Shown: positions 4,535 through 19,836, counted from the first letter of the stretch. The stretch is DNA of 64,000 nucleotides from a virus (IMGVR_UViG_2721755344_000002:32001-96000), one strand, 5' to 3'. Program-made: numbers and translations. Notes: generated by a model not told the origin, from the letters alone.

Positions 4535-5428
4535 TTAATTCTCCTCCGCAACCTGGACATTCCATGTGTCACCTCGTAATCTCCATATACAATTATTTTT
4601 AAGTTGATTCAAAAGTTTTCTCCTCAAAATCAAATGATTTGTTCTACACGAATTATGATCCATTGGCTTAGTAATACCTGGATAGCACTCATCAATAAGG
4701 GCATAGTTTTTAGTTCTATCGTGCTCGGCACCAACATCATATTTTTTGCCTTTGAAATCTGTTGCCACTATCAATCCTGTATCTTGTAATACATCAAGTG
4801 AGTTTGACCAAAAAACTGTTTTGAATTGCGCTTTTGCATCTGCAGCTACTGAAAATGTTTGATCAAACGGATTTTCAGACCATTTGAAAAAGCCAAAAAA
4901 TCCAGTCCATTTATAAGTTCTTATTAATGGTTTTTCCCGATCATACGAGCTTTTTATCTTGTAATTGAGACTCGTTGTAAAATACGGAATGTTCCACGCT
5001 TTAGCAGTTCCTATCAGAACCTGTAGCTTTTTGGTATATATCTCAGCGTTCAATACACTAGTACGATACGCCCATCTTGTCGGTATAGCATCAGGCAAGA
5101 TATACCTGGTCATAATTATATCGTCATCTAATAGAACACCCGCATCCTCATCCCCCATATAACAACGCTTTAATAAATTCATTCCGTGCCAGCGTAGAGC
5201 CCCAAACGGAGGCTTTCCATCTGATGAGACAAAATCATGTCCCAAAATTTCTATTTCGTAACATTCCAACAAATCTTTAAAATCCTGTAATTGCGACCTA
5301 TGGCAAAATATCTTAATCTTATTCGATTCAACTCCAAGTCGATTAACAAGTATTCTTACTGTTTTAGCACACTTTTTTGGATATTTTGAAGCAATTAAAT
5401 AGTAAATTTGGTATGCCATTTTTCTCAC
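4535..5428 (-). CDS. putative GT-A fold glycosyltransferase-like protein
   Basis: N-terminal YYLIAS strand, 'GALRWHGM' followed by hydrophobic-LLDDDI (DxD-like) motif; own consensus promoter. Confidence 0.45.
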   Translation of the reverse strand: MRKMAYQIYYLIASKYPKKCAKTVRILVNRLGVESNKIKIFCHRSQLQDFKDLLECYEIEILGHDFVSSDGKPPFGALRWHGMNLLKRCYMGDEDAGVLLDDDIIMTRYILPDAIPTRWAYRTSVLNAEIYTKKLQVLIGTAKAWNIPYFTTSLNYKIKSSYDREKPLIRTYKWTGFFGFFKWSENPFDQTFSVAADAKAQFKTVFWSNSLDVLQDTGLIVATDFKGKKYDVGAEHDRTKNYALIDECYPGITKPMDHNSCRTNHLILRRKLLNQLKNNCIWRLRGDTWNVQVAEEN

Positions 5429-5439
5429 CTCGTATAGCC

Positions 5440-5468
5440 ATTATAGCATATCCAAAATTATTTGTCAA
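5440..5468 (-). promoter_or_regulatory. sigma70-type promoter
   Basis: TTGACA-17-TATAAT on minus strand. Confidence 0.85.
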
Positions 5469-5989
5469 GTCTTATTTTTGTGCAAGTCCACAAGAGACTT
5501 AAGCAATTTTATTATCTCCTCCAACTGTCGATTCATTTCCAACAGTATGTTAAAATCTTCCTGGTCCATCGCCATTTTTTATACCATCCCCAAATCAAAT
5601 GCTTCTATACCATCTGGACATTTTCTCCTATTAATCCACGCTATTTTACATCCTTTCCCTTAAGCTCCAAACTATTCCTATGAGAAGCATAAACAAACAG
5701 ATTCCTCCCCATACCCAACTAATCCAATGGACCTCTCCAACAAGAAGGAAAAGAAAACACGTGACTGTTACTCCACCAATTCCAACATATATCATACTCC
5801 TGCATATTTCTGACTTAGTCATTTTATCTCCAAATTAATCCATCTTAATTGTTTCCATTTCTCGCCCAGTAAATTTGACCTAAGATATCTTTAAACAACT
5901 TATACTCCGTTGTTTCAAAAAACAATGTTAAACCCCCAGCTTTTATATCTTCTTTAGTTGCAAACCTGTACATTTTTTCAACTAACTGT

Positions 5990-6220
5990 TCAGAGCTTAT
6001 CATCTAACTCCTCTTCTATTATAAATCTAACATATTCAAGGTGATAGCTAAACCAACCCTTTTCCCACATTCTATCCCATGTTTGCTGTTTGTACTCTTG
6101 ACACCAAGACTTGAAGTCCTTCTGGTACTTTTTCGGCACCTGTTTCCATAGAGCAGGAAACGGTGTATCATCCTCGTTAATCATTCTTGACAAGGCTTTT
6201 AAAAAATATTTACCATTCAT
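5990..6220 (-). CDS. hypothetical protein
   Basis: ORF; start moved to ATG 6220 because the TTG at 6271 is the -35 box. Confidence 0.55.
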   Translation of the reverse strand: MNGKYFLKALSRMINEDDTPFPALWKQVPKKYQKDFKSWCQEYKQQTWDRMWEKGWFSYHLEYVRFIIEEELDDKL

Positions 6221-6242
6221 ACTATCCCAACCCTTTCGCAAT

Positions 6243-6271
6243 ATCATAACATAATAAAATCTATTTGTCAA
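6243..6271 (-). promoter_or_regulatory. sigma70-type promoter
   Basis: TTGACA-17-TATGAT with TGn extension. Confidence 0.7.
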
Positions 6272-6330
6272 CCTGTTTTTGATTCAAAATCGACCTTCTT
6301 TAATTGCTATTAAGATAATAATCTTTTCAA

Positions 6331-7020
6331 TTATATTAGATATTTCTGAGAGCATAAGCAATCTAAATTTGTCCAAATTCCCTCGTTCCTAAGTTTTGAT
6401 CCCTTGCGTTGTCCACTTGTGGTACACAAAGGTCTAAACGGTAACCATACAGCACTATCGTTTTCGCAAACAATAATTTGACCTTTTCGACTTTTGCACC
6501 AACTGGCTAATACTTCATAATCCAAATCCTTCCCATATGGATACAATTTCTGGCCGATATAGGGAGGGTCAATAAACCATGTAGCCTCTATATCGGGGGC
6601 TATGGAATAGTCGCCGAGCAGAATTTCCCATGTACGAATTTTAGCAACGTCATCGGCTACTTTATTCCAATTCAAATTTTGATTACCTTTGAAACCACCA
6701 ACAAAATTTTTAGGAGTTGGACTACCTTGATTCAACATAAAACCTAGAAAATCTCTGGCCTCCTGAGGTTTGATATCAGGTATAGGAGCCTTTGCATCAG
6801 GATGTGGAAGATTTCTAATAAAGTCTAGATCTGAATTTTGCAACCATTTCAGCATAGAAACAATCACAGGATTTTTTTCAATTAAAATAACATGCCTACC
6901 AACACTATGTCTTAAAGCATAATTTGCTGCGCCAGAAAACGGCTCAATAATTATATTATAAATAGGGGCAGGATACTTTTTCCATATTTTTGATTTTGAA
7001 CCATAATAACTGAATATCAT
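6331..7020 (-). CDS. Dam-like (D12 class) DNA adenine methyltransferase
   Basis: FSYYGSK, IEPFSGAA (motif I), FIDPPY (motif IV). Confidence 0.85.
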   Translation of the reverse strand: MIFSYYGSKSKIWKKYPAPIYNIIIEPFSGAANYALRHSVGRHVILIEKNPVIVSMLKWLQNSDLDFIRNLPHPDAKAPIPDIKPQEARDFLGFMLNQGSPTPKNFVGGFKGNQNLNWNKVADDVAKIRTWEILLGDYSIAPDIEATWFIDPPYIGQKLYPYGKDLDYEVLASWCKSRKGQIIVCENDSAVWLPFRPLCTTSGQRKGSKLRNEGIWTNLDCLCSQKYLI

Positions 7021-7298
7021 ACAATGGTACTCTTCAGCATCTTAATCTCTTCTTCTAGATCTTTAATCTTAGTTTCAGCTTCAGATAATGGATGTTTTGG
7101 ACACTGTCTAATATGATCATATAGCACTTTACGTTTAACAGCATTCGTTCCAGGTGGATATCTATGGCCGCAATATACACAATTTATATACATACCACTT
7201 TGTAAATCATCAACCCATTTTTCAAGTCTAACTACTTCATTTTCAAGTTCTATTACTCTATCTGTAAGCTCTAAGTGCTCTTTCTGAACTACTGACAT
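7017..7298 (-). CDS. coiled-coil / zinc-finger protein
   Basis: CVYCGH...HIRQCPKHP flanked by heptad-rich helices. Confidence 0.6.
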   Translation of the reverse strand: MSVVQKEHLELTDRVIELENEVVRLEKWVDDLQSGMYINCVYCGHRYPPGTNAVKRKVLYDHIRQCPKHPLSEAETKIKDLEEEIKMLKSTIV

Positions 7299-7477
7299 TT
7301 GCTTTCTCCTTTCAAGTACCCAGTACCTTCAAAACTCTTATTTTCGCAAAAATGCTACAGCTACATTTCACACAAAGATAAAATCCGCTAGGTGTTAATC
7401 TTGATCTATGCGGTCTTGTTCTACCGCCACATCTGATACATTTATATTTTGATAGTTCTGATCTATCACTACCACAA

Positions 7478-7852
7478 TCAGTTGTACACATCTTTCCCTC
7501 CATTTCCCTCTGCCCAATATCGTATCATGGTTGGAAAACTCTTGTGTGGTGTCGCCATCGGAAATAATCGTTCAATAATTTTTACTTTCTTCCCCGCCAT
7601 AAATGCCATACCAATATCAAAAAGACAACCCTCACTTTTTCCATCCCAAGCGATGTGAATTTCGTCGGCCCATAAAATACCTTTTTTATTATCGGTGCAA
7701 ATTCTAAAACCAACCGAATCATTCTGATCTGTGTCCCGTGATGGCCAGTAAACCCTATTTCCGGTAGCTTCAAGACTTTTCACATATTCTTCAAGGATTT
7801 CTTTCCAATGTACATCAATATTTCTAACTGGACAGATTAAAAAAATTTTCAT
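7478..7852 (-). CDS. nucleoside 2-deoxyribosyltransferase-like protein
   Basis: KIFLICPV, VYWPSRD, ADEIHI, SEGCLFDIGMAF..GKK pattern. Confidence 0.65.
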   Translation of the reverse strand: MKIFLICPVRNIDVHWKEILEEYVKSLEATGNRVYWPSRDTDQNDSVGFRICTDNKKGILWADEIHIAWDGKSEGCLFDIGMAFMAGKKVKIIERLFPMATPHKSFPTMIRYWAEGNGGKDVYN

Positions 7853-7912
7853 TCTACCTCTATTTTTGATTTTGAACCGTAGTAGCTAAAGATCATTATT
7901 TAAACCTTAAAA

Positions 7913-7982
7913 ATACCATACCTTACCATACCGAACCTAACCGAACCAAACCTTACCAAACCAAACCTCACCCTACCGAACT
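7913..7982 (-). repeat. GGT-NN pentamer array C (14 units), putative guide ncRNA
   Basis: minus strand: AGT TC GGT AG GGT GA GGT TT GGT TT GGT AA GGT TT GGT TC GGT TA GGT TC GGT AT GGT AA GGT AT GGT AT; intergenic. Confidence 0.9.
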
Positions 7983-7988
7983 TAAAAT

Positions 7989-8888
7989 TTACCACTCATA
8001 CCCATCTGAATATAATTTTAAATCGCTCTTTTCGTTTATAAGAACAAATCCATTCTTCCACTTAGAATGACTGCTTTTTACAGTACTCCCATTATAGGTC
8101 ATTGAATCTTGAGAAAACATCCCTCCGCAATCCGCTCCAATATATTTCCCACTTTGATCGTTTCCCGAACCGAAATGATGACCGTGAGCACAAATCACAT
8201 TTTTGTGTTCGATTGCTATTATATCTAAAGGAGTTTTGATTGTCTGCTTTGAATAATTGGATGGATGGCAAATAATCCAATTTTTATCTTCCGTCATAGC
8301 ATACTTAATATTTGATGGAAAAACTCTAACCCCAACCAAATCTATTGGAACTAATTGATAAAAAAGATTTTTTACATCAAAGATGCTTCCCAAAGCTCTG
8401 AAAATTCTTATATCATGGTTTCCCAAAATAAAATAGATTTTTTCAAACTGATTCAACAAACACTCGAACAATTCCCTCCCCGCTTGGAGTTCAGTATCCC
8501 AATCCACTTTTACTCCTGTATTCATCCAAATCTTAAACTGGTCTTGATCAAAGAAATCTCCAGCTATCATAAGAGTTTTAATTTTTCTAATATCTGAAAT
8601 TTCGCAGAGTAACTGAAGCCATTCTTTGCTAGTATGAGGTATATGAAAATCCGCAACAATTAAACAAGGAAGAGGAATATACATTGTATTATCTTTTATC
8701 CATTCCAACGACATTTTAATAACTGTGTCAATAGTTGGAATTTTAATAAGATTTCTCTTCTCAGCTCTCTTCAATAAATCATCTTTTGTAAACCCAGCCA
8801 CGGAACTAAATTTCAAAATTTTAGATTTATTAGAAGAGTTACTAATACTTTTTTTACATTCACTAAATTTTAGATTTTTCATTTTCAC
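7989..8888 (-). CDS. calcineurin-like metallophosphoesterase
   Basis: ADFHIPH, GDFFD, GNHD, HGHH metal-binding motifs. Confidence 0.85.
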   Translation of the reverse strand: MKMKNLKFSECKKSISNSSNKSKILKFSSVAGFTKDDLLKRAEKRNLIKIPTIDTVIKMSLEWIKDNTMYIPLPCLIVADFHIPHTSKEWLQLLCEISDIRKIKTLMIAGDFFDQDQFKIWMNTGVKVDWDTELQAGRELFECLLNQFEKIYFILGNHDIRIFRALGSIFDVKNLFYQLVPIDLVGVRVFPSNIKYAMTEDKNWIICHPSNYSKQTIKTPLDIIAIEHKNVICAHGHHFGSGNDQSGKYIGADCGGMFSQDSMTYNGSTVKSSHSKWKNGFVLINEKSDLKLYSDGYEW

Positions 8889-8898
8889 CTCACTAAGT

Positions 8899-8963
8899 TA
8901 TCCATACCATACCAAACCGAACCGCACCTGACCGAACCCTACCATACCCGACCAAACCACACA
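8899..8963 (-). repeat. GGT-NN pentamer array B (13 units), putative guide ncRNA
   Basis: minus strand: TGT GT GGT TT GGT CG GGT AT GGT AG GGT TC GGT CA GGT GC GGT TC GGT TT GGT AT GGT AT GGA TA. Confidence 0.9.
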
Positions 8964-8996
8964 ACAGCCTGATAAGAAGAATATTAAGAATAATTG

Positions 8997-9076
8997 CATC
9001 CTTACCATACCATACCGAACCGAACCCCGCCTAACCATACACTACCATACCAAACCGAACCAAACCTTACCTAACT
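8997..9076 (-). repeat. GGY-NN pentamer array A (16 units), putative guide ncRNA; begins inside the last codons of the RAMP-like gene
   Basis: minus strand: AGT TA GGT AA GGT TT GGT TC GGT TT GGT AT GGT AG TGT AT GGT TA GGC GG GGT TC GGT TC GGT AT GGT AT GGT AA GGA TG. Confidence 0.9.
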
Positions 9077-9609
9077 TCTTTTAATTCTACATCGAAACGT
9101 CCGAATCTAGGTCTCCAATCACCGATACCAATCTTATGCCCAGTAATTTCCATAACACTCTCAACTATTTGCTTTGGAATATCATCATCCACAATTATCG
9201 TAAATTCTGCTTTCCACCCCTTTTTGAAAAGGGGCCTATGAATAGCCACTCTTCCCCCAGTTCTTGGAGGTCTCCTCCCATGACTAATATGAATATCGTC
9301 CCATATTTTTTTGTTGGGAATAAATCGGATTTTATTTTCTTCAATTAAAACACCAGCTATAAAATCTCCTGTCCATTTAGTAGCACCTTTCTTAACCAAT
9401 TTAGATGCTCCAAATTTGATAGCCGCAAGAAAATGTTCGTCTGGGATATAACAACCATCCTCGTCTTTATACACAACTTCATCAACTTTACTGGTCGCAT
9501 CTGTGGCTAATGATTTAGCTCTTTTTACACCTTTTGATTCTTCTTCCGAAATGGTATACTGGTTCTGAAGATAATCGACAATCCCTATACATTTTACTTT
9601 AATTTTCAT
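9067..9609 (-). CDS. stand-alone Cas7/RAMP-like RNA-binding protein (about 180 aa)
   Basis: N-terminal beta strand IKVKCIG, 'CYIPDEHFLAAIK' (RAMP YIP..slKG-like), RP..WKAEFTI, C-terminal glycine-rich loop GIGDWRPRFGRFDV; GGAGG RBS before ATG 9609. Confidence 0.7.
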   Translation of the reverse strand: MKIKVKCIGIVDYLQNQYTISEEESKGVKRAKSLATDATSKVDEVVYKDEDGCYIPDEHFLAAIKFGASKLVKKGATKWTGDFIAGVLIEENKIRFIPNKKIWDDIHISHGRRPPRTGGRVAIHRPLFKKGWKAEFTIIVDDDIPKQIVESVMEITGHKIGIGDWRPRFGRFDVELKEVR

Positions 9610-9634
9610 AGTATCCTCCATTTAATTTAATATT

Positions 9635-9664
9635 ATTATAACACAATTAAAAAGGTTTTGTCAA
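9635..9664 (-). promoter_or_regulatory. sigma70-type promoter for the RAMP-like gene and arrays
   Basis: TTGACA-18-TATAAT with TGn extended -10. Confidence 0.8.
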
Positions 9665-9665
9665 C

Positions 9666-10982
9666 TCAGCCCCACTCCTTTTGAACATTCTGAGTTCTTT
9701 TGGTTGAAAGTTCCGAATATCCCAAATCAACCCCAAACCCGCGCCTGCCTAACTTTTCCGCAACTCTGATTGTAGTACCGGATCCAGCAAACGGGTCTAA
9801 TACCGAACCTGCTATCCAACCTGCATTACATCCGCAGTCCGTTAGCTCGACTAACTTCTTCATATACTGACCCATATTCTTTTCTTTAAATTCTCTCGGG
9901 TCTCGAGGGTCGGGTCTAGGCTTATTAACTTTCGGATCATAATCACCTGAATATTCTGAATCATAAATTTTCTCTCTCGGCTTCCCACATTTCTTACAAA
10001 TAAACTCTGGGACACCAGCCAAAATCATAGGTCGAACAAGATCCTCGGGAAATATTGCGAAATGAGCCTCTCTAACTCCTTTTGTAGGAATCTTCCACAC
10101 ACATCGTTTATTACGACCTAGAGGGTTAAGATTATTAAAAATCCTTTGTCTTACTTTAACACCTCCGCTCACGCCTTCGGAATCATAATCTTTCCATCCC
10201 CTTCCCCCCTCATCATTTCCAGCTCTTGCATCATTGAGCGTAACAGAAGACATTGGCTCAAATTGCTGGTCAAAGAAATAGTCTTTCTTCTTAGCAAAGA
10301 AAAATACAGGCTCCCAGTCGACCGTAAACCTATCTTTTACGCTGTGAGGTAAGGTATTCGGTTTATGCCAAACAATTTTATTCCTAAGTATCCATCCTCT
10401 GTTTAACATCTCGATCACAAATCTTTCCGGAATACCTAACAAAGACTTTGGGGCAAACTTTTGAGAAGGAGGAGCTCCAAATCCGCCTATACCAACAGGA
10501 CGAGAATCAATTCCTCGAGGACCTTTTCTTTGAGTACCAGGTTTCTTTCCCTGATCACCTCCACTCCCTCCGTAACTATCTGATAAATTCACAAAAATTA
10601 TACCATCGTCTCTCAATACTCTTTTCACTTCATCAAATATATCGCACAAGTGCCTGATAAAGTCATCATAATGAGACTCGCATCCTAACTGCCCTTTCCA
10701 TGCGCCACACTTAGTACAATTTGAACGAGAACCATATTCAATTTTTTGTGCTTTAGGTGGCGGTCGATCTCCATACATTGAGTTTTGTGTTCCACCAGCT
10801 CTCATTCGATAATCAAAAGCCAGCTCTTCTGTAACCCAATCGTGGGGGCAATTCGGGGACCCGTCCCAAATCACATCTGGAATATCATACTTTCTGAGAG
10901 CGTAATACGGCGGGGAAGTGATAACGCAATTTATTGACTTATCCGCAAGCGGAATATGCCTTGCATCACAGTTAAATATCAT
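9666..10982 (-). CDS. N4/N6 DNA methyltransferase (beta class) with Cys-rich insertions
   Basis: TSPPY, GWILRNKIVWHKPN, HFAIFPE, LDPFAGSGT; CxxC inserts. Confidence 0.9.
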   Translation of the reverse strand: MIFNCDARHIPLADKSINCVITSPPYYALRKYDIPDVIWDGSPNCPHDWVTEELAFDYRMRAGGTQNSMYGDRPPPKAQKIEYGSRSNCTKCGAWKGQLGCESHYDDFIRHLCDIFDEVKRVLRDDGIIFVNLSDSYGGSGGDQGKKPGTQRKGPRGIDSRPVGIGGFGAPPSQKFAPKSLLGIPERFVIEMLNRGWILRNKIVWHKPNTLPHSVKDRFTVDWEPVFFFAKKKDYFFDQQFEPMSSVTLNDARAGNDEGGRGWKDYDSEGVSGGVKVRQRIFNNLNPLGRNKRCVWKIPTKGVREAHFAIFPEDLVRPMILAGVPEFICKKCGKPREKIYDSEYSGDYDPKVNKPRPDPRDPREFKEKNMGQYMKKLVELTDCGCNAGWIAGSVLDPFAGSGTTIRVAEKLGRRGFGVDLGYSELSTKRTQNVQKEWG

Positions 10983-11006
10983 CCTACGCTTTCTAAATTT
11001 GGTCTT

Positions 11007-11216
11007 TTATTCCACCACTACATTGATTGCTTGTGGACCTTTGGGACCTTCTTGAATCTCGAAATCTACCTTGTCGCCTTCGTTCAGGGATTTAAAACCC
11101 TCCCTCTGAATAGCTGAGAAGTGAACGAATACATCGCTACCATCTTCTCTGGAAATAAATCCGAAACCCTTCTTCTCGTTAAACCACTTAACACTACCTT
11201 TCGTAAATATCACCTC
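11007..11216 (-). CDS. csp: cold-shock domain protein (start codon uncertain)
   Basis: [35 protein letters not shown]. Confidence 0.92.
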
Positions 11217-11229
11217 CTTTCTATTTTTA

Positions 11230-11322
11230 TGGGGACAGGCGGGGGACATAACGGACTCAAACCGAGTTCTTGGTATAACTTCACCCCCGAGGAACCTGAA
11301 CCTGCTTTCGCCACTGTCCCCA
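11230..11322 (-). ncRNA. tRNA-like structured element upstream of csp
   Basis: 9-bp terminal stem TGGGGACAG/CTGTCCCCA, GTGGCGAAA D-like start, CGG-TTTGAGT-CCG T-like arm. Confidence 0.4.
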
Positions 11323-11384
11323 CTAATATTTCACCTTCTATCATCGTCACTAAAATTCACTAGAACTCCCTGAATACTTTCTCT

Positions 11385-11981
11385 TCATACTTCGTCCCCC
11401 CAAACTTCCCACTTTTCATCTCTTTTCCTAGCAAAAAGTTCAATTCTTTTTCCTATAGGATATAAATCTTCAATCATCTTCCTAAACTTAGGAGGTTTCT
11501 CGGAATGTTTACCTCTATGTATTGAGACAACACTTGGATATAATTTCCGACGGTCTGGCAGGCAACTTCCTTTAGTAGCTACCAATAAAAACTCGTGACG
11601 CAACGAGTTGTAGTGAGCGAAATTGTGAGTCATCTTATCCCAAACGAACGAACTTTTGTATTTGAACCCCCAAGCATTAATTACCTTAAAAGCATCTTCC
11701 AGTAATGGAGAAGTTACCCAAAGAAATAAAACAGCATTATCTTCTGTTCGTATCTTTAAATTACAAATTTCTTCAAGACTCATCGTTCCATAATGATGCT
11801 CTGCTGCTCCATATCCATCTACTAGTTTATCACCATATTGCCAAGGCGGGTCAGCATAAACCACACGAAATTTATCGCTGGAAAGAGATTTATTTGTTTT
11901 TTCTCTTATATCATCTTGAAAAAATGTATCTTGATTAGGATTCTTAATCCTGCGCTTAGGAAATTTTTTTGATAGTTGCAT
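11385..11981 (-). CDS. MT-A70 family adenine methyltransferase
   Basis: YADPPW, LFLWVT, WGFKY, HEFLLV, HSEKP, IELFAR, WGDE. Confidence 0.92.
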   Translation of the reverse strand: MQLSKKFPKRRIKNPNQDTFFQDDIREKTNKSLSSDKFRVVYADPPWQYGDKLVDGYGAAEHHYGTMSLEEICNLKIRTEDNAVLFLWVTSPLLEDAFKVINAWGFKYKSSFVWDKMTHNFAHYNSLRHEFLLVATKGSCLPDRRKLYPSVVSIHRGKHSEKPPKFRKMIEDLYPIGKRIELFARKRDEKWEVWGDEV

Positions 11982-11982
11982 T

Positions 11983-12795
11983 CTACTCCGAGTTTAATCC
12001 CAAATCGAATGATTCTTTATACCAATCGGGCACACTTGACCTTATCTCTTCTATATTATGTGGTTTTCCCACATTAAACCCTCTTCCCAAAAGCCACCAA
12101 ACCATTTCGGTACTATTAAAATATACCCTACCCGTAGATTTTATTCCACCTTCTGGCTCAATATTACCGGTATCCAATTCCCAATCAGGAATTTTTACTA
12201 TAACTGAAAGTTCGTCTGCAAACTGGGATGTACCTTCCTTACTTTTCAATATACAAAATACTCCTGGTTCTACAACTAGATCATATCCTTTTAATTCAAA
12301 AAATTTGTCATGGAAATCATCTTTATTTTTAACCAATACTCTCACATATAACTTAGAATGTTTCGCCAGATAACCAAGAGTTTTATAAAAATTGTTGCTG
12401 TCGGTAAACAAAAATTCCTTTCGATTATAGGAATTTCCTTTGCGAGCATCAGCCCTTCTCGACTTATTCTTATCATCACTAAAATTTTTTAAATATCTTT
12501 CGTTCGTATTTTCTAATAAAACCTGCGGAGAAATAGAAGTTCTAATTTCTTCCCCATCTTTTCCTCGTCTTACTATAACTACCTCATCGTTTGTGATAGA
12601 CTCAATCGTATAATACCCCGAGTTATCCATGTAAGTTTCGCCTACCCGCAAACCTAAAATCTTAATCTCTGCTAATTTGTATTCTGCAAAGCTGTCAAAA
12701 TCGTCCCTGTCTAGTGCAATATCTTTATCTTCTTCATCATTTAAATTTATTTCTTTTACCTCTTTCACATCTTCTTTTACCTCAACATTTTCCAT
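11983..12795 (-). CDS. hypothetical protein
   Basis: 270-aa ORF with GGAGG RBS and acidic N-terminus. Confidence 0.7.
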   Translation of the reverse strand: MENVEVKEDVKEVKEINLNDEEDKDIALDRDDFDSFAEYKLAEIKILGLRVGETYMDNSGYYTIESITNDEVVIVRRGKDGEEIRTSISPQVLLENTNERYLKNFSDDKNKSRRADARKGNSYNRKEFLFTDSNNFYKTLGYLAKHSKLYVRVLVKNKDDFHDKFFELKGYDLVVEPGVFCILKSKEGTSQFADELSVIVKIPDWELDTGNIEPEGGIKSTGRVYFNSTEMVWWLLGRGFNVGKPHNIEEIRSSVPDWYKESFDLGLNSE

Positions 12796-13205
12796 TTTTT
12801 CTCTCCTCCCGTATCATTATTTTCATAACATCATTCTACATAGATATCTTCTCCACTCTCTATCGCTTCTTTAGCTTGAATCCAACCTTCAACTTGGCAA
12901 CTGTTCTCTTTATAGTTTAGTTTCTTCTCTTCGATCTTCTCATAGAAAATAGCAACTCTTAACGCAGATAATAAATTTTCTCGCAATATTTTCATCATTT
13001 AAAAACTATTGCCTCTTAAACCTAGCCGGTGTGTGTTGGTCATTCCAAATAGTCTGCCCAAAAGCGTAACGTATGGCCTGAGATATAATAACTCTCATAA
13101 ACCAGACTCCCCCTAATGAAGCAATACAAAGAAGAACATACAAAATAGCATCCATTGAACTCTTTTTAGTTTCCATCTCATACTCCTTTCATTTAATTTA
13201 TAATT

Positions 13206-13234
13206 ATCATATCACAAAAAAAGGAGATTGTCAA
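13206..13234 (-). promoter_or_regulatory. sigma70-type promoter
   Basis: TTGACA-17-TATGAT. Confidence 0.75.
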
Positions 13235-13427
13235 GCTATATTTTATAAATAATTCGTATGTAATATCAAATACTTAGCTTGTTGAAAATCAACTTTTGCC
13301 GTAAGGAATTGATTCATTACACCGCCCGCAAATTGGACAGTAACAAGTCCATCCAGCTAAAACTGCACCGCACCTTGAACAATAATCATATCTTGGAATC
13401 ATAGTCAGGGTCTCACTTTCCCTCCTT

Positions 13428-14480
13428 TCACTTAACCATACAAACCACATCTTCCCAATCTATTCTAGGAGCGCCTTTCTTTTCCTGTAATCTTCGGAAA
13501 AAGCTTTTTCTCTCTTTGGTAAATTCAGCACCGTCAAATGCAGTTTGAGGATCATTATTTACTAACATTGCATAATGCCAACATACTATTTTAAAACCAA
13601 CAGACTCACATAAAGAAGCCCACGTATCAGAAAAATTAATTCTAGTCTTATTCCTTATATAATCCTTTGTAACCCAAATTGCATGCCCATCAGGTTTTAA
13701 CAAATTATAGCATTCTTGAATTATCTCACGAGAAGCCAACCAAAAGTCATCGCCAGCTATGCTACCCAAATTATCTTTATTATCTTTATTGTACCCTTCC
13801 CACGTTTTATTTTTACGATCTATTTTTCTTTGCTCTCTATCTGCTTGCTTAGATGAGCAAATTTCCGATGCTCCGTATGGAGGACTCGACATTATCAAAT
13901 CTGCCTTCATATTAGAAAGATTTCCTGGAGTACAACCGTAGGCATTTTGATAACGTAATTGACCGCATCCTATTCTACCATGCCCCGCTTTTGTTGCTAA
14001 TTCTTGACGTCTTGCATGGTTTTCAGGTTTATCACTCCCAGACAAACTATTTGCATAAGGAGGACTCGACATTACCAAATCAGCCTTATCAATCAGCTCC
14101 TTTAACTTTCTTGAATCCCCTTGAATAATTTTTGCTGTTCCTCTATATAGATGGAAAGGACGGCTTTCGCAAAGTTCCTTATCCAGTCCTTCCCACTTTT
14201 TAATATTTTTTCTGCCTAATTCTACAAATTTTTTCTCGATCTCTATTCCTATCCAATGTGCCCCTCTCGTCATAGCACCAAAACCTCCCAATGCTACTCC
14301 TCCAAACGGGTCGAGAACAATGTTGCCCTTCTTCAACCATTCATTATCAACAGCATGATTGTATATCTTCTCAACTAAGGCACAGCTAAACTTTGCTGGA
14401 TGACAAAAAGCATCACTAACTATGGAATCTTTCCATCCGGTTTCGTAACAATTCCTCCATACATCTGTCTCAAATATCAA
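13428..14480 (-). CDS. amino-DNA methyltransferase (paralog of 50978-51904)
   Basis: HPAKF, LDPFGG, GIEIE, two SSPPY motifs. Confidence 0.85.
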   Translation of the reverse strand: MIFETDVWRNCYETGWKDSIVSDAFCHPAKFSCALVEKIYNHAVDNEWLKKGNIVLDPFGGVALGGFGAMTRGAHWIGIEIEKKFVELGRKNIKKWEGLDKELCESRPFHLYRGTAKIIQGDSRKLKELIDKADLVMSSPPYANSLSGSDKPENHARRQELATKAGHGRIGCGQLRYQNAYGCTPGNLSNMKADLIMSSPPYGASEICSSKQADREQRKIDRKNKTWEGYNKDNKDNLGSIAGDDFWLASREIIQECYNLLKPDGHAIWVTKDYIRNKTRINFSDTWASLCESVGFKIVCWHYAMLVNNDPQTAFDGAEFTKERKSFFRRLQEKKGAPRIDWEDVVCMVK

Positions 14481-14623
14481 TATTCTTCACCTTCGCCTTC
14501 TTCTAATGAGTTATAACACTCTTCACAAAGAATGTCGTAATCGTAATCTAATCCCCTAACCCTAGCTTCAAAATCTTCTTCTGGAATTTCTTCCCCGCAT
14601 CTTTCACACAGCATAAATACCTC

Positions 14624-15418
14624 CTATACAAATGTCCTTTGTACTCCGGATGTTAAGTTACCATAATACTTGCACAACTTTATAAACATAGCTACTTTGT
14701 ACGCAAAAGCAGGAGGAACTGCATTGCCTATTAAAATTTCGATGTCACGTTGCCCTAATTTTCCCAAATCGAAATAAAATGGGAAAGTTTGTAAAGATAA
14801 CGCCTCTTCGTGATTCAATACTCTCACCCTATTTCCATCTTGAATATGAGGACATATCCTACCAAATGAGTTATACCTACAAGTTATGGTCGGATATTTG
14901 CGAATAATTCCCTCAGGTCTGAACTCTCTTAACTTCTGCTCTTGTTCTTCGGTCAAATATTTATTTTTAGTCTTTGGAATACTCAATTTAATATTACTGC
15001 AAAATAATCGCCTTCTTCGTTGAAGTAACCCGTAGACACTCATATCAAACACTTCTTTGAACGGAGCACCTACGAAATCACTCACAGCAGGCACATTCTC
15101 CATCACCCAGAACTTCGGACGGATTTCTGACACCGCCCTAAAGAACTCGTTAGTTAATTTGATATCGCAATCTCGACTTAAAGTATTAGCACAAGAAAAG
15201 GTCTGACATGGAGGAGAACCAATCACTACGTCAATCTTGCCTTCCCATTCCTTAAAACTATATCCCCTAATATCTGCTAGTATGCACTTTCCTATGTTTG
15301 AAGTATAAACTTCAACCGCGTTAGGATTGTTATCAAGTCCCCACAAGTGCTCAAACCCCGCTGCTTTAAATCCCAATGAGAATCCGCCACAGCCTGAAAA
15401 CAAGTCTACAAAGTTCAT
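14624..15418 (-). CDS. dcm: C5 cytosine DNA methyltransferase
   Basis: DLFSGCGG, GSPPCQ, ENV, QRRRR, LQTFP, IGNAVPP. Confidence 0.93.
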   Translation of the reverse strand: MNFVDLFSGCGGFSLGFKAAGFEHLWGLDNNPNAVEVYTSNIGKCILADIRGYSFKEWEGKIDVVIGSPPCQTFSCANTLSRDCDIKLTNEFFRAVSEIRPKFWVMENVPAVSDFVGAPFKEVFDMSVYGLLQRRRRLFCSNIKLSIPKTKNKYLTEEQEQKLREFRPEGIIRKYPTITCRYNSFGRICPHIQDGNRVRVLNHEEALSLQTFPFYFDLGKLGQRDIEILIGNAVPPAFAYKVAMFIKLCKYYGNLTSGVQRTFV

Positions 15419-15718
15419 TTTTAAACCTACTGGTTTCCTTTACGGAAATCCCATTTCCTATCTAAAAGACATGCAATACCTTCACTTCCTTTTATAGCCG
15501 TCTTCCAGGTTTCAGTTTTGAAGATATTTTCGTAATTCTTACTACCGATCGCCCTTTTGAAAGCATCTCCTGCAGTATACATCGCTTCCATCTGGACCAC
15601 TTGAGGTCCGAGTTCTGGCATGTTCATGTTGCGAGCGTGACGAATAAGTATCTCAACTCGGGCCAAATCTTCCAGTTGACTTTTGCTAAACTCTTTCATT
15701 TAATCCTCCTTATTTCGT

Positions 15719-17053
15719 CTAAAAAAATGTTTTTTGCAATGGAGCTTTCAACCTTTTTTGAATAATTTTACAGTATCCTTCGTCTTTCTCAATCCCAACA
15801 GCTTTTCTATTAAGTTTCTTTGCTGCTACCAGAGTTGAACCCGAACCTGCAAACGGATCAAGTATTAAACTCAGATTCTTCCTACTTACTAAATTTAGTA
15901 ACCATTTCATCAACTCCACAGGTTTAACTGTTGGATGGAAGTTCTTTCTCTTGCTCTCCGCACCCCTGTTTCTTGGGTTTGTTCCGCCCAGACTTCCTTC
16001 TTCCCTACCTTCATCCATGAACTCTCCATTTTCCTGCTCGAGTCCCAAGTCCCTTTCTTCCTTATCCGCCTTAGCGCAGTAAAAAAACCGTGATGCTGAA
16101 CCTGAACTAGCTTCTCCTATCCATTTAGTTTTACCTGATGGTTTACCCAACGAAAAACCAGTATTAGTGTATTCATAAGACTTTAGCATAGCACCTGATT
16201 GCTGCTCTGGAAATAGCTCTTCAACTTCTTCACTACCGTCGTGGACTAAGTTAGCTGGAAATCTACCCTTAGAATTTTGCTCATAAAGATTTGGAGTCCC
16301 ATCTTGAAACATCCCTAACGCTTTTCCTTCTCGTGAGTCTCCGCTAAAAGTTCTCAACGGACCTCCGTGAGTTAATATATCTTCTGTCTTAACTCTACAC
16401 TCATCAATATTTATAGCTCCTGTTCCATACTTCAAAACATTCTCTGCTACTGTTCCAATTACTAGCTTTCTGAAAACTAGTATAGGCTCCCAGGCAGGCT
16501 TTAACGCTGTTCCCCACCCCTCCCATTCTTTAGCTTCGGAAGTTGCCGGAATTGTAATCTCACTTGACAATCTCTCTTTCATCATTGCTTTTTCACTCTC
16601 GTATCCTCCCCCTCTGATATCTTGCATCGTCTGGGATTTATGTCCTATAACTTCCCTTTCCGCACCTTTCATCTTGTCAATGGCCTTACTCACGTCCAAA
16701 CTCTTGGGGAAGCCCGACCCGTACACCCACATAATAGTATCTCGAAATTCAAACCCAGCATCCTCGATTGCACAGGCTAAACGATGAAACGTTCTTGTTC
16801 CCCCAAAGACTAGTAAATACCCTCCTGGCTTTACTACTCTCAGAGCTTCTACAGCCCATTGATAATGAAATTGATAAGATGGTTGACCTTTCCCACTTTT
16901 ATCCCATTTTTTTGACATGAAACCGAGCAAATACGGAGGATCCGTTACGATCGCATCAAACGAGTTTTCATCAAACCCCTTCATTACTTCGATACAATCC
17001 CCACAGTACAACTTTACTAAATTATCTTCGTAATCAATCAAATATTTTATCAC
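15719..17053 (-). CDS. N6/N4 DNA methyltransferase (beta class)
   Basis: TDPPY, YGSGFPKS, LKPAWEP, HPTVKP, LDPFAGSGST. Confidence 0.92.
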   Translation of the reverse strand: MIKYLIDYEDNLVKLYCGDCIEVMKGFDENSFDAIVTDPPYLLGFMSKKWDKSGKGQPSYQFHYQWAVEALRVVKPGGYLLVFGGTRTFHRLACAIEDAGFEFRDTIMWVYGSGFPKSLDVSKAIDKMKGAEREVIGHKSQTMQDIRGGGYESEKAMMKERLSSEITIPATSEAKEWEGWGTALKPAWEPILVFRKLVIGTVAENVLKYGTGAINIDECRVKTEDILTHGGPLRTFSGDSREGKALGMFQDGTPNLYEQNSKGRFPANLVHDGSEEVEELFPEQQSGAMLKSYEYTNTGFSLGKPSGKTKWIGEASSGSASRFFYCAKADKEERDLGLEQENGEFMDEGREEGSLGGTNPRNRGAESKRKNFHPTVKPVELMKWLLNLVSRKNLSLILDPFAGSGSTLVAAKKLNRKAVGIEKDEGYCKIIQKRLKAPLQKTFF

Positions 17054-17699
17054 CTTCCAGTAACCATTTCTCTAGAAACTCCTGATGAGTCATTTTAAAA
17101 TACTTACCATATTTTGCAATTCTCGTTTTTGGCCGGTACATATCCATAAAGTCAACTACATATCCCCTAAACTTTTTAGATTGAGCAACCGCTAAAGCTT
17201 TAGTAAACACTTCTGGATGGATAACAGCACTACCCATACAAATAAAATCAAACTCTTCTTCATTCATTATGCAACATAGTTTATTAAAATCATTTTTAGT
17301 TTTGTACGCAAACATAACCCATCTATCATCAAACAGTTGCCAGAAATCCCCACCCAGAATAGTAAATAGCATTACTTCTATTCCGTTAGTTTCGCAAATT
17401 CTTGTTACTGAACCTTCGGGAGCTAAAACTCCCGACTTTCCAAAATTATGAAGCACACAATTTTCGTTTATCCACTGCCACAATAATTCAGACGCATCCT
17501 TATTTAAATCTGGATTTATCATTAAAGCGTCAAGAGAATGAGAATGATAGGGAATAAGTTCGGTAGCTAGCTGAAAATCGTGAAAGATCGAACCTCCATT
17601 GTGAATAAGAACATCAAACATTTTCTTTTGAGCAACTTGTTTCAATTCATCAAGCGCGGTTTTAATAACTGCGCCACCTATAGCAAGTATTCTTTTCAT
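17034..17699 (-). CDS. deoxyhypusine-synthase-like (DHS-like fold) protein
   Basis: GGAVIKT, NGGSIFHDFQLA, GSAVIHPEVFTKAL resemble bacterial DHS-like family motifs. Confidence 0.6.
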   Translation of the reverse strand: MKRILAIGGAVIKTALDELKQVAQKKMFDVLIHNGGSIFHDFQLATELIPYHSHSLDALMINPDLNKDASELLWQWINENCVLHNFGKSGVLAPEGSVTRICETNGIEVMLFTILGGDFWQLFDDRWVMFAYKTKNDFNKLCCIMNEEEFDFICMGSAVIHPEVFTKALAVAQSKKFRGYVVDFMDMYRPKTRIAKYGKYFKMTHQEFLEKWLLEGDKIFD

Positions 17700-18118
17700 A
17701 CCTCCTCGCCTGTTTTAATATCTATTTTTCTTAACCGTAGCATTCTTTTAGGTCTTGGTTTAGAAATAGGAAATGCAATTCCAATTTCTTCAGGCATATA
17801 GTAAATATGTTCGGAAGACGATGCAGCTGTAGATGTTACAAAAAATGATCTCATTAACATCTTTTCAAAATGCTTGCATAATCCATTGTGAAGTTCAGCA
17901 TGCTTACATAATTCAGATAATACCATTTGATTATAATCAAATCTAGCAGTCACCATTTCGAGTTCCGAATACTCGGGAGTGTGCCAAAAATATCCAATTC
18001 TCTCACAATCTTCGCAAAAGAATATAATAGACTGAGATTCAAAAGTACGACATGCCCTAAAACCAACCCCATTAGGAAATCGGTATTTCTTTAGCTCGTC
18101 TATTAAGTTCATAGACAT
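17696..18118 (-). CDS. hypothetical protein with C-terminal RMLRL motif
   Basis: 140-aa ORF, CxxC, ends RPKRMLRLRKID. Confidence 0.6.
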   Translation of the reverse strand: MSMNLIDELKKYRFPNGVGFRACRTFESQSIIFFCEDCERIGYFWHTPEYSELEMVTARFDYNQMVLSELCKHAELHNGLCKHFEKMLMRSFFVTSTAASSSEHIYYMPEEIGIAFPISKPRPKRMLRLRKIDIKTGEEV

Positions 18119-18273
18119 ACGTCCTCCTAACTTTTTTCTTCATAGCTTTTTTATCAACAAAGTGAGAACACTTTTTAGGAACATAACATAAAGTGCTTCC
18201 ATCAATCGGGCACCAAATTTCCTTTACCCTGCTATTTAGATAAGTACTAATAATGGGATTCCAATAACACTCT

Positions 18274-19836
18274 TTACATAGATTCATAGCAATCATTCCA
18301 ACTAAGTTGGGTCGTTTTAGAACGCTCTGACGATAATTCGTGATATCCCAAATCAAGGGATACTCCTATTCTTCCTAACTTTCTAGCAGTTTTCATTGTA
18401 GTTCCGCTTCCCCCAAATGGATCAAGCACCAATCCTGGCTTCCAGGGGATATTTATGTCAAAATCTGAACAACCACACTTTTCGCAAATTATTTTACCAG
18501 AAACCATTCCAGACAATGGGGGCAACGTATCTTCCCCTGATGAAATTTTTTTATCCGAATTAGAAAGATATATAATATTCCCGCAACGAATACAAGTCAG
18601 TTCTCTACATCCGCAATCCGATAATCCTTTATCAACCCGTTTAGTTTCTCTAGATGCCCACACTCTTTCTTTTTCATCCAAAGTCATATCTTCTGAAATT
18701 TCGAGCCAGTCGCTTTTGTCATATTCTATCACTCGAGCTCGAGGTTGTCCGCAAGCTTTACAAATGAACTCTGGGCAACCAGCTTTAATTATTTCTTCGC
18801 ACAACTTCTCTGGAAAGCAAGCGTAATGGGCTTCTCTATATGGTTTAGTTGGAATCTTCCATATACATCTTTTAATTCTGCCTTCTGGATTAGGACGCAT
18901 ATTTCTAGCCCTATACCAACTTTGGCCGGTCCCCTCATCCCAAGTACTTACTCCTTTCGGTATGAGAGTTTCTCCACCCCACCTATCCATAGACTTTTCG
19001 TATTTCTCTAGAGGCTGGTCAAACCAATAATTTTTTGATTTTACGAGGAAAAAGATGTATTCAAAATCAACAGAAAATCTATCTCGAGCACTATTTGGAA
19101 TACCGTTAGGCTTCTGCCAAATAATTGTATTCCTTAATCTCCACCCCTTGTCTATCATTTTAGTAACTAATCTAAACGGAATACCGCATAAAGACTTATC
19201 TTGAATTTGAGTCTTTGGTTGATCAAGTCTAAATTTTTCTGACTTCCCAAACTTATTACTTCTAAACGATGAGTTGCAAACTCCTTCTTTTAAACTTCCG
19301 GAAACGGTAGAATAAGTATCTCCAATATTTAAAAAGAATATACCATCGTCCCGCATTACTCTCCATACTTCATCAAATATCTGAATTAAATGCTCAATAT
19401 ATAAATCAAACGTAGGCTCAAGTCCTAACTGCCCTTTCCATGCACCACACTTCTTACAGAAAAAGCCTGAATCCCATATTGTGTCTCCCGCACTTCCAAT
19501 ATCTTTAGTAACACCCAATACTGTCATACTACTCGAGCTCACACCATGAGAAGGCTTCTTACCTAAAAATTTTATCTGCTCTCCCCAATCATGCTCGCAA
19601 TTCGGGTCGTCATCCCAAATCTGGTCGGGAATATCATATTTTCGGAGGAACCAATAAGGAGGGGACGTAAAGACGCAACTTATTGTTTTGTCTTTTAGAG
19701 GAATAAACCTCGAGTTGCCTTTTATATTAAAAGTCCTTACCGACTCTTTTAGAGATTTCTTACACTTTTCAAGTCCTAGCAGATCACTAACCATCTCGTT
19801 TAGCTCGTTGATACTTTCCACGCCTACCAGTATCAA
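18274..19836 (-). CDS. N4/N6 DNA methyltransferase with multiple Zn-finger-like insertions (paralog of 9666-10982)
   Basis: TSPPY, CGAWKGQLG, GWRLRNTIIWQKPN, LDPFGGSGT. Confidence 0.9.
   Translation of the reverse strand: MILVGVESINELNEMVSDLLGLEKCKKSLKESVRTFNIKGNSRFIPLKDKTISCVFTSPPYWFLRKYDIPDQIWDDDPNCEHDWGEQIKFLGKKPSHGVSSSSMTVLGVTKDIGSAGDTIWDSGFFCKKCGAWKGQLGLEPTFDLYIEHLIQIFDEVWRVMRDDGIFFLNIGDTYSTVSGSLKEGVCNSSFRSNKFGKSEKFRLDQPKTQIQDKSLCGIPFRLVTKMIDKGWRLRNTIIWQKPNGIPNSARDRFSVDFEYIFFLVKSKNYWFDQPLEKYEKSMDRWGGETLIPKGVSTWDEGTGQSWYRARNMRPNPEGRIKRCIWKIPTKPYREAHYACFPEKLCEEIIKAGCPEFICKACGQPRARVIEYDKSDWLEISEDMTLDEKERVWASRETKRVDKGLSDCGCRELTCIRCGNIIYLSNSDKKISSGEDTLPPLSGMVSGKIICEKCGCSDFDINIPWKPGLVLDPFGGSGTTMKTARKLGRIGVSLDLGYHELSSERSKTTQLSWNDCYESM

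What the first reader, a model, noticed from the sequence alone, without database searches (positions are those of the whole stretch)
7913..9664. Candidate RNA-guided system: stand-alone Cas7/RAMP-like gene plus three GGY-NN pentamer arrays
Seen in sequence: a dedicated promoter (9635-9664), then a ~180-aa gene, then array A (starting inside the gene's last codons), a 33-nt AT-rich gap, array B, a metallophosphoesterase and array C. Each array has 13-16 perfectly phased 5-mers with an invariant GGT (rarely GGC/TGT/AGT/GGA) and a freely varying NN. Established knowledge: the protein carries RAMP hallmarks (YIP..(S)lK-like motif after the first strand and a C-terminal G-rich loop GIGDWRP.FGRF), and Cas7-type RAMPs polymerise along RNA with fixed periodicity. 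Inference: one protomer binds each GGU and displays NN, so each array is a guide that reads a target non-contiguously. No cas1/2/3/5/6/8/10 or CRISPR repeat-spacer array is in the window. This matches my recollection of recently reported phage 'VIPR'-type systems, which I cannot verify here.
Basis: partly seen in the sequence, partly recalled or inferred. Interest (0 to 1): 0.97.

Follow-up and report, generated by a model that had tools for sequence, protein, structure and literature searches.

The report
Phage VIPR RNA-guided silencing locus
This phage carries a VIPR system, a kind first described in 2026: a small Cas7-like protein plus three guide RNAs built from GGT-NN pentamers. It is a new member of a known kind, and its one unusual feature is a phosphoesterase gene sitting among the guide arrays.

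Summary
On the minus strand a perfect sigma-70 promoter (9664..9635) precedes a 180-aa gene (9609..9067). Three phased GGYNN arrays follow: A 9071..9002 (14 units), B 8958..8904 (11 units) and C 7977..7913 (13 units). An intact metallophosphoesterase gene (8882..7989) lies between B and C.

The protein matches the solved "SUSP1 Vipr protein" by sequence (E 7e-12). It keeps the residues that bind GGY, and its model resembles Cas7 proteins. In 79 of 83 loci with homologues, GGYNN arrays lie on the gene's strand (317 arrays against 13 on the other strand). These are the defining features of VIPR (Viral Interference Programmable Repeat; bioRxiv 10.64898/2026.04.26.720920).

Four things differ from the characterised type II system:
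- The Vipr protein falls in a separate clade.
- There is no vap1 homologue.
- There is no conserved or structured 3' tail.
- A vipr-arrays-phosphoesterase module recurs in three different gene neighbourhoods. None of the four VIPR papers I could read mentions a phosphoesterase.

Natural targets could not be established. The only full guide match is about what chance would give.

Verdict: a new member of a known kind, possibly a new accessory-gene variant.

The parts
9635..9664 (-). Sigma-70-type promoter of the locus (TTGACA, 18 nt, TG-TATAAT)
   Evidence: 12 of 12 consensus matches with an extended -10 TG. It is the only strong minus-strand site in 7400-9900. Function is inferred.
9067..9609 (-). 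vipr gene: 180-aa minimal RAMP (Vipr homologue), including the stop codon
   Evidence: PDB 36pp_D 'SUSP1 Vipr protein' at E 7.2e-12. phrog_4652 at 5e-20. AF2 model pLDDT 76.6. Top Foldseek hits are Cmr4, Csm3 and type VII Cas7. R138, D177, W178 and R179 equivalents and the GIGDWRPRFGRF G-loop are conserved.
9002..9071 (-). vrRNA array A: 14 GGYNN units. NN = AA TT TC TT AT AG AT TA GG TC TC AT AT AA.
   Evidence: Array caller and sequence. The first unit GGTAA overlaps the vipr stop codon.
8904..8958 (-). vrRNA array B: 11 GGTNN units. NN = TT CG AT AG TC CA GC TC TT AT AT.
   Evidence: Array caller. One 22/22 xNN match in an IMG/VR phage contig, L085:11379-11410, which is about what chance would give.
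7989..8882 (-). Metallophosphoesterase gene (297 aa) embedded between arrays B and C; candidate accessory (vap-like) gene
   Evidence: PF00149 at 5.5e-8 and phrog_221 at 3e-16. Metal-binding motifs D78-x-H80, G108-D109, G154-N155-H156, H206 and H233-x-H235 are conserved. AF2 pLDDT 88.8. Foldseek hits Mre11, LpxH, GpdQ and PP1. The same vipr-arrays-phosphoesterase order occurs in L001 and L100.
7913..7977 (-). vrRNA array C: 13 GGTNN units. NN = AG GA TT TT AA TT TC TA TC AT AA AT AT.
   Evidence: Array caller and sequence.

Best explanation
The locus is a VIPR (Viral Interference Programmable Repeat) system carried by a roughly 114-kb tailed phage. Steps 1 to 3 and 5 below are inferred; step 4 reports searches run here.

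1. One strong promoter probably drives a single transcript: vipr, array A, array B, phosphoesterase, array C.
2. By homology with SUSP1 VIPR, Vipr protomers bind one per pentamer. The G-loop (GDWR) and the thumb arginine hold each GGU, and each NN is exposed.
3. The filament then reads double-stranded DNA with the two-paired, one-skipped rule (NNxNNx). It blocks transcription of a competing mobile element such as a rival phage, a satellite or a prophage.
4. The three guides have no target in the phage's own genome. Their natural targets were not identified.
5. The phosphoesterase has an intact active site and is kept with vipr and the arrays in three different gene neighbourhoods. It is probably this subclade's accessory gene. 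It could be an Mre11-like nuclease or phosphodiesterase acting on the bound target, or it could act on vrRNA 3' ends. This step is speculative.
For: - Sequence homology to the solved SUSP1 Vipr protein at E 7.2e-12, with the G-loop and thumb aligned.
- Residues whose mutation abolishes silencing in SUSP1 (R138, D177), plus W178 and R179, are conserved.
- The AF2 model's best structural matches are all Cas7-family RAMPs, E 3e-5 to 1e-3.
- Three arrays of 11-14 phased GGYNN units lie on the gene's strand. No other array of 10 or more units exists in the genome, and none appears in surrogates.
- In 83 loci with homologues, 79 have same-strand arrays: 317 against 13 on the opposite strand.
- The context is a phage: terminase, ribonucleotide reductase, SbcC, and an IMG/VR virus record with CheckV completeness 87%.
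- No Cas1 and only one vipr copy in the genome.
- No self-target under the xNN rule. The best scores of 20/28, 16/22 and 20/26 fall within the range of shuffled guides. The paper likewise found no self-targets.
- The vipr-arrays-phosphoesterase order occurs in the window, in L001 (Vipr 54% and phosphoesterase 66% identical) and in L100 (38% and 40%). The flanking genes are unrelated in the three loci.
Against: - Nothing here shows that the arrays are transcribed, processed or bound by the protein.
- No natural target was found. Guide A units 1-11 have no exact match in the viral, metagenome or genome collections.
- Guide B's single 22/22 match (one phage lineage: L085 = L105 = L106) is about what chance would give across the databases searched.
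- There is no conserved or significantly structured 3' tail, which type II vrRNAs have. Fold z-scores are -1.28, +1.19 and -0.15.
- NN is A/T-biased, and the 3' units of all three arrays are AT or AA.
- SUSP1 H17 aligns with an asparagine.
- The phosphoesterase link is not general. Four other Vipr relatives at 36-42% identity have no such gene nearby.
- Two close phosphoesterase homologues have no vipr next to them.
- More distant phosphoesterase homologues have no arrays nearby.
Confidence: 0.9

Rival explanations
1. It is a VIPR locus, but the phosphoesterase is only a passenger phage gene that happens to lie between arrays. On this reading the system is a vap-less vipr-plus-vrRNA type.
For: - The wider phosphoesterase family is large (1095 representatives at E <= 1e-3) and is a general phage family (phrog_221).
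- The close homologues P0012 and P0013 have no vipr next to them.
- Distant homologues in IMG/VR have no arrays.
- Four Vipr relatives at 36-42% identity lack the gene.
Against: - The module vipr, arrays, phosphoesterase is kept in three loci whose other neighbours differ: DNA methylases in the window, PAPS reductase and HerA-like genes in L001, RlaP and an SNF2 helicase in L100.
- In the window and in L001 the gene is bracketed by arrays on both sides and has no good promoter of its own.
Confidence: 0.45
2. The locus regulates the phage's own or its host's genes as a developmental switch or host takeover function, rather than fighting other mobile elements.
For: No competitor target could be established. 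The host is unknown, so host genomes could not be scanned.
Against: There is no match above shuffled-guide background in the phage's own 114 kb. Characterised VIPR systems target satellites and prophages.
Confidence: 0.1
3. The pentamer arrays are DNA-level repeats such as iterons, packaging sites or G-rich structural DNA, or a fossil. They are unrelated to the protein's function.
For: No expression data exist for this locus.
Against: There is a strict strand and adjacency association with Vipr homologues across 79 of 83 loci. The GGY-binding residues are conserved. The arrays' NN differ between relatives while GGY is kept.
Confidence: 0.02

Closest known systems
Type II VIPR of Escherichia phage SUSP1/SUSP2 (Vipr + vap1 + vrRNAs; bioRxiv 10.64898/2026.04.26.720920, 10.64898/2026.04.26.720927, 10.64898/2026.10.15.759431; PDB 36pp)
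   Same: - A homologous Vipr protein, 29% identical over the full length, with the same G-loop and thumb residues.
- GGYNN arrays of 11-14 units on the gene's strand.
- Phage-encoded, with no self-targets.
   Different: - A separate Vipr clade: a 9-row clade with SH-aLRT 97, against a 63-row clade that holds SUSP2 (quick tree).
- No vap1 homologue in the genome.
- All arrays lie downstream of vipr.
- No pseudoknot or other conserved 3' tail.
- A metallophosphoesterase is embedded among the arrays.
- A shorter helical insert, with a 9-residue deletion where SUSP1 K33 lies.
Stand-alone vipr relatives with hairpin-tailed arrays (L107, L110, L111; Vipr 36-42% identical)
   Same: They group with the window protein in the profile search. 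They have the same small protein followed by short intergenic GGYNN arrays.
   Different: Their arrays end in a short GC hairpin, for example CUCCC-UUCG-GGGAG, and they have no phosphoesterase nearby. The window, L001 and L100 arrays lack that hairpin and do have the phosphoesterase.
Cas7-family RAMPs of class 1 CRISPR-Cas (Csm3, Cmr4, type VII Cas7)
   Same: The fold is the same: an RRM core plus a glycine-rich loop. All top Foldseek matches are Cas7 subunits. Like them, Vipr polymerises along a guide RNA with fixed periodicity, as established for SUSP1 Vipr.
   Different: - No CRISPR repeat-spacer array: TRF finds no repeat-spacer-like array in the window.
- No Cas1 in the genome.
- 5-nt periodicity rather than 6-nt.
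- Structural similarity is only moderate (TM about 0.5, 12-16% identity).

Membership tests
VIPR system | Vipr protein: sequence or profile homologue of characterised Vipr | tested here: met
   phmmer against PDB finds 36pp_D 'SUSP1 Vipr protein' at E 7.2e-12, aligning residues 37-180 to 45-189. tblastn finds 126 phage records, mostly Felixounavirus/Suspvirus.
VIPR system | Minimal RAMP fold: a single RRM core, a glycine-rich loop and a thumb | tested here: met
   AF2 model pLDDT 76.6, pTM 0.72. Twenty-three PDB matches at E <= 1e-3, led by Cmr4, Csm3 and type VII Cas7. The stretch 105-116 before the conserved R-P, which I take to be the thumb, is modelled with low confidence (pLDDT < 50), so its geometry is not resolved.
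VIPR system | GGY-contact residues of SUSP1 Vipr (H17, R138, D177, W178, R179) | tested here: met
   R138, D177, W178 and R179 are conserved in the window protein; R138, D177 and W178 are invariant columns of the five-sequence alignment, and R179 is H in one relative. H17 aligns with N16.
VIPR system | Adjacent same-strand tandem arrays of about 9-16 GGY/NN pentamers with variable NN | tested here: met
   Three arrays of 14, 11 and 13 units. 37 of 38 units fit GGY, and NN uses 11 different dinucleotides. Zero such arrays in surrogates.
VIPR system | Association of arrays with the protein family across relatives | tested here: met
   79 of 83 loci have arrays on the gene's strand; 317 same-strand arrays against 13 on the opposite strand.
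VIPR system | Conserved 3' tail after the repeat tract (a pseudoknot in the SUSP1 clade) | tested here: not met
   The three downstream stretches share no sequence and do not fold better than shuffles (z -1.28, +1.19, -0.15). No Rfam ribozyme is present. The paper describes the pseudoknot tail for the SUSP1 clade and says array architectures vary between types, so I treat this as a type-level feature rather than a family-level one.
VIPR system | vap accessory gene next to vipr | tested here: inconclusive
   There is no vap1 homologue. A metallophosphoesterase occupies the downstream position, and the same arrangement is conserved in 3 loci. Whether it is one of the published vap1-6 genes cannot be checked, because the figures and data S4 are not held.
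VIPR system | Virus-encoded context | tested here: met
   Terminase, ribonucleotide reductase, SbcC and many DNA methyltransferases. The genome is an IMG/VR virus record.
VIPR system | Guides match natural DNA targets under the 1-nt-skip (xNN) rule, and there is no self-target | tested here: inconclusive
   No self-target. Guide B matches 22/22 at the start codon of a 94-aa ORF in one phage lineage, but my rough estimate of chance full matches over all collections is 0.1-0.5. Guides A and C have no convincing target.
VIPR system | vrRNAs are expressed, bound by Vipr, and direct DNA binding or silencing | not testable with these tools
   This needs small-RNA sequencing, pull-down and reporter assays.
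CRISPR-Cas (class 1) | CRISPR repeat-spacer array and further cas genes (cas1 and others) | tested here: not met
   No repeat-spacer-like array among the TRF rows for the window. No Cas1 (PF01867) in the genome, while the control genomes were positive. No PADLOC hit for the locus proteins.

The most novel reading that the evidence does not exclude
The window, L001 and L100 may define an undescribed VIPR subtype. In it the usual DNA-binding vap and the structured vrRNA tail are replaced by a catalytically intact metallophosphoesterase embedded in the array. The enzyme would act either as an Mre11-like nuclease recruited to the Vipr-bound target, which would give a phage VIPR that destroys its target rather than only silencing it, or as the enzyme that matures the 3' ends of tail-less vrRNAs.
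Probability: 0.3. Interest if true: 0.55.

Novelty: new member of a known kind. Interest (0 to 1): 0.4.

Why it matters
VIPR was described only in 2026, as a phage-borne RNA-guided DNA-silencing system with a gapped reading code and a proposed link to the ancestry of CRISPR. This locus adds a divergent member from an uncultured 114-kb phage.

It also points to a small subclade with two differences from the studied systems: it has no structured guide tail, and it carries an active-looking metallophosphoesterase instead of the known DNA-binding accessory protein. If that enzyme is a real partner, the range of VIPR effector activities in lytic phages would be wider than reported. It would also give a simple three-part module to test. 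If it is not a partner, the locus is an ordinary example of a known system.

Tried and rejected
1. Targets.
- Exact xNN pattern scans were run for guide A (units 1-11) in viral, metagenome and genome collections. All gave 0 hits.
- Guide B units 1-9 gave 9 IMG/VR hits in 6 contexts. All decode to an N-E-A-W-E-L-I-R-N-like peptide. I first read this as convergence on one gene family, then rejected that reading. The pattern fixes codon positions 1-2, so the peptide is forced, and the host ORFs are unrelated.
- The single 22/22 match (L085) recurs only as identical copies in metagenomes and is absent from the genome collection.
- Guides A and C do not hit that contig above the shuffled background.
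- Guide C's 6 hits lie in unrelated genes and do not extend.
- There is no cross-targeting between the window's and L001's guides, their genomes, or any of the loci then held.

2. Finding more members of the subclade in IMG/VR with clade-specific motifs gave none.

3. The profile of 50 phosphoesterases was too diverse for a locus scan. The 6-sequence profile found only distant homologues without arrays.

4. Host inference was not possible.

5. Substrate of the phosphoesterase. The fold search cannot separate Mre11, LpxH, GpdQ and PP1. NCBIfam hits are far below cut-off, and there are no PADLOC hits.

6. Assignment to one of the seven published types was not possible, because the classification figure and data are not held.

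Full report
**What is there**

Read on the minus strand, the region holds the following, in order:
- A consensus promoter, TTGACA-18 nt-TG-TATAAT, at 9664..9635. It matches 12 of 12 positions and is the only strong minus-strand site in 7400-9900.
- A GGAGGA ribosome-binding site, then an ATG at 9609 that opens a 180-aa ORF ending at 9067.
- Array A (9071..9002), whose first unit GGTAA contains the stop codon.
- A 43-nt AT-rich gap.
- Array B (8958..8904).
- A 297-aa ORF (8882..7989).
- Array C (7977..7913).

A strict GG[CT]NN caller run over the whole 114,307-bp genome finds only these three arrays of 10 or more units, with 14, 11 and 13 units, all on the minus strand. Of the 38 units, 36 are GGT, one is GGC and one is TGT, and NN takes 11 different values. 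Twenty Markov surrogates of the genome produced no array of 10 or more units. Two qualifications apply: NN is A/T-biased, and each array ends in AT or AA units.

**The protein**

Pfam, NCBIfam and PADLOC give no hit. PHROGs gives phrog_4652, of unknown function, at 5e-20.

A sequence search of the PDB gives exactly one hit: chain 36pp_D, 'SUSP1 Vipr protein', at E 7.2e-12. The alignment runs through ...RV..HRPLF..GW..EF... and GIGDWRPRFGRF.

The window protein was aligned with the SUSP2 orthologue and three closer relatives. SUSP1 residues R138 (thumb) and D177, W178 and R179 (G-loop) are conserved in it; R138, D177 and W178 are invariant across all five sequences. H17 aligns with N16. The helical insert around K33 is 9 residues shorter.

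An AF2 model (pLDDT 76.6, pTM 0.72) finds only Cas7-family RAMPs at the top of the PDB: Cmr4, type VII Cas7 and Csm3, at E 3e-5 to 1e-3 and TM about 0.5.

**The system is published**

A literature search finds four 2026 preprints. VIPR systems consist of a minimal RAMP (Vipr), vrRNAs of 9-16 GGY/NN repeats followed by a 3' tail, and usually a vap accessory gene. They occur mainly in phages and proviruses.
- One protomer binds each repeat. Two neighbouring protomers hold GGY, and NN pairs with dsDNA while every third target base is skipped.
- Seven types and six vap genes are described. Array architectures vary between types.

**Independent check of the protein-array link**

I fetched 83 loci that encode homologues. 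Seventy-nine have arrays of 5 or more GGYNN units on the gene's strand. There are 317 such arrays against 13 on the opposite strand, and all 13 are minimal 5-unit calls. The closest relative, L001 (54% identical), has the same order of elements but different NN.

**Context**

- The genome is an IMG/VR virus record, classed as linear, with CheckV completeness 87%. GC content is 37%.
- It encodes a terminase, ribonucleotide reductase, an SbcC-like protein and at least six DNA methyltransferases just upstream of the locus.
- It has no Cas1, a single vipr copy, no vap1 homologue, and no nucleotide match among 50,697 phage records.

**What differs from the characterised type II system**

1. In a quick maximum-likelihood tree of 72 Vipr sequences, the window groups with L001, L100, L002, L080 and L004-6 (SH-aLRT 97). 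SUSP2 lies in the separate 63-row clade. The careful tree search did not finish, so this placement is provisional.
2. The sequences after the three arrays share nothing with each other and do not fold better than shuffles. No Rfam family is present. In contrast, relatives L107, L110 and L111 end each array with a short GC hairpin.
3. The ORF between arrays B and C is a calcineurin-like metallophosphoesterase.
   - It hits PF00149 at 5.5e-8 and phrog_221 at 3e-16.
   - All metal-binding motifs are conserved across 50 homologues.
   - Its model is confident (pLDDT 88.8).
   - The fold search does not separate Mre11, LpxH, GpdQ and PP1.

**Is the phosphoesterase a partner?**

For:
- The order vipr, arrays, phosphoesterase recurs in L001 (phosphoesterase 66% identical) and in L100 (Vipr 38% and phosphoesterase 40% identical).
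- The surrounding genes are unrelated in the three loci.
- In the window and in L001 the gene is bracketed by arrays on both sides.

Against:
- Four further Vipr relatives at 36-42% identity have no such gene nearby.
- Two close phosphoesterase homologues have no vipr beside them.
- Distant homologues have no arrays.
- The wider family is large, with 1095 representatives.

None of the four papers' text mentions a phosphoesterase. The classification figure and data are not held. I rate the partnership at roughly even odds.

**Targets**

- Under the xNN rule there is no self-target. The best scores fall within the shuffled-guide range, which agrees with the paper.
- Exact pattern scans with guide A (units 1-11) gave nothing in three collections.
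- Guide B units 1-9 gave 9 IMG/VR hits. One, L085:11379-11410, extends to 22/22. It lies antisense over the start codon and the first nine codons of a 94-aa membrane and coiled-coil ORF.
- The similar peptides among these hits are forced by the pattern, and the genes are unrelated. The full match recurs only as identical copies.
- My rough expectation of chance full matches over all collections is 0.1-0.5. It rests on base composition and assumed collection sizes, so it is an estimate and not a measured value.
- Guides A and C do not converge on that contig.
- I therefore treat the target as not established.

**Mechanism and status of each step**

- Shown here: homology of the protein, conservation of the contact residues, the arrays and their family-wide linkage, the phage context, and the absence of self-targets.
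- Established for SUSP1 and inferred here: filament assembly with one protomer per pentamer, the 1-nt-skip reading of dsDNA, and transcriptional silencing of competing elements.
- Inferred from sequence only: a single operon transcript from the 9664 promoter, and processing into three vrRNAs.
- Speculative: the role of the phosphoesterase, and the idea that the terminal AT/AA units serve as a handle in place of a tail.

**Verdict**

This is a genuine VIPR locus and a new member of a known kind. A possible new accessory-gene and tail-less variant is the part worth following up.

Noticed in passing
window 4535-19836 (minus strand): A dense run of DNA methyltransferase genes lies next to the VIPR locus: 6331-7020 just downstream of it, and 9666-10982, 11385-11981, 13428-14480, 15719-17053 and 18274-19836 upstream (PHROG and Pfam hits). 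It looks like an anti-restriction island.
   Followed up: partly
L107:3686-3990, L110:2558-2640, L111:3871-3960: In Vipr relatives that have no phosphoesterase, each GGYNN array ends with a short GC hairpin, for example CUCCC-UUCG-GGGAG. The three phosphoesterase-linked loci (window, L001, L100) lack it. This is a 3-against-3 correlation between the tail type and the accessory gene.
   Followed up: partly
L100:2440-3975: This locus has at least ten degenerate arrays upstream and downstream of vipr, with many TGT and AGT units. Four of the arrays between vipr and the phosphoesterase gene are followed by a conserved motif of about 25 nt (AAATAAATTTGAGAAAATTGAGAA-like). The 3' end of the vipr ORF, just before the first downstream array, also carries this motif (TTTGAGAAAATTGAAGAATAG), and the last array lacks it. 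So it may be a 5' leader or a promoter module rather than a tail.
   Followed up: no
L080:3293-3877: A single uninterrupted GGYNN array of 117 units (585 nt) lies next to a Vipr homologue. That is far longer than the 9-16 units described. It might be a staggered or overlapping array.
   Followed up: no
L001:4924-5049: A 41-aa, very basic ORF with a good ribosome-binding site sits between arrays A and B in the closest relative. The window has no counterpart.
   Followed up: no
window 45581-45837: Tandem repeats of 15, 42-45 and 57 nt (consensus ACCCTGTCGAGTTGT on the plus strand) lie inside the 283-aa minus-strand ORF 45557-46408. This would be a repetitive protein segment.
   Followed up: no
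window 7478-7852 (minus strand): The 124-aa ORF directly after array C has only a weak hit to nucleoside 2-deoxyribosyltransferase (PF05014, E 0.05, below cut-off). It has no PHROG, NCBIfam or PADLOC hit.
   Followed up: partly
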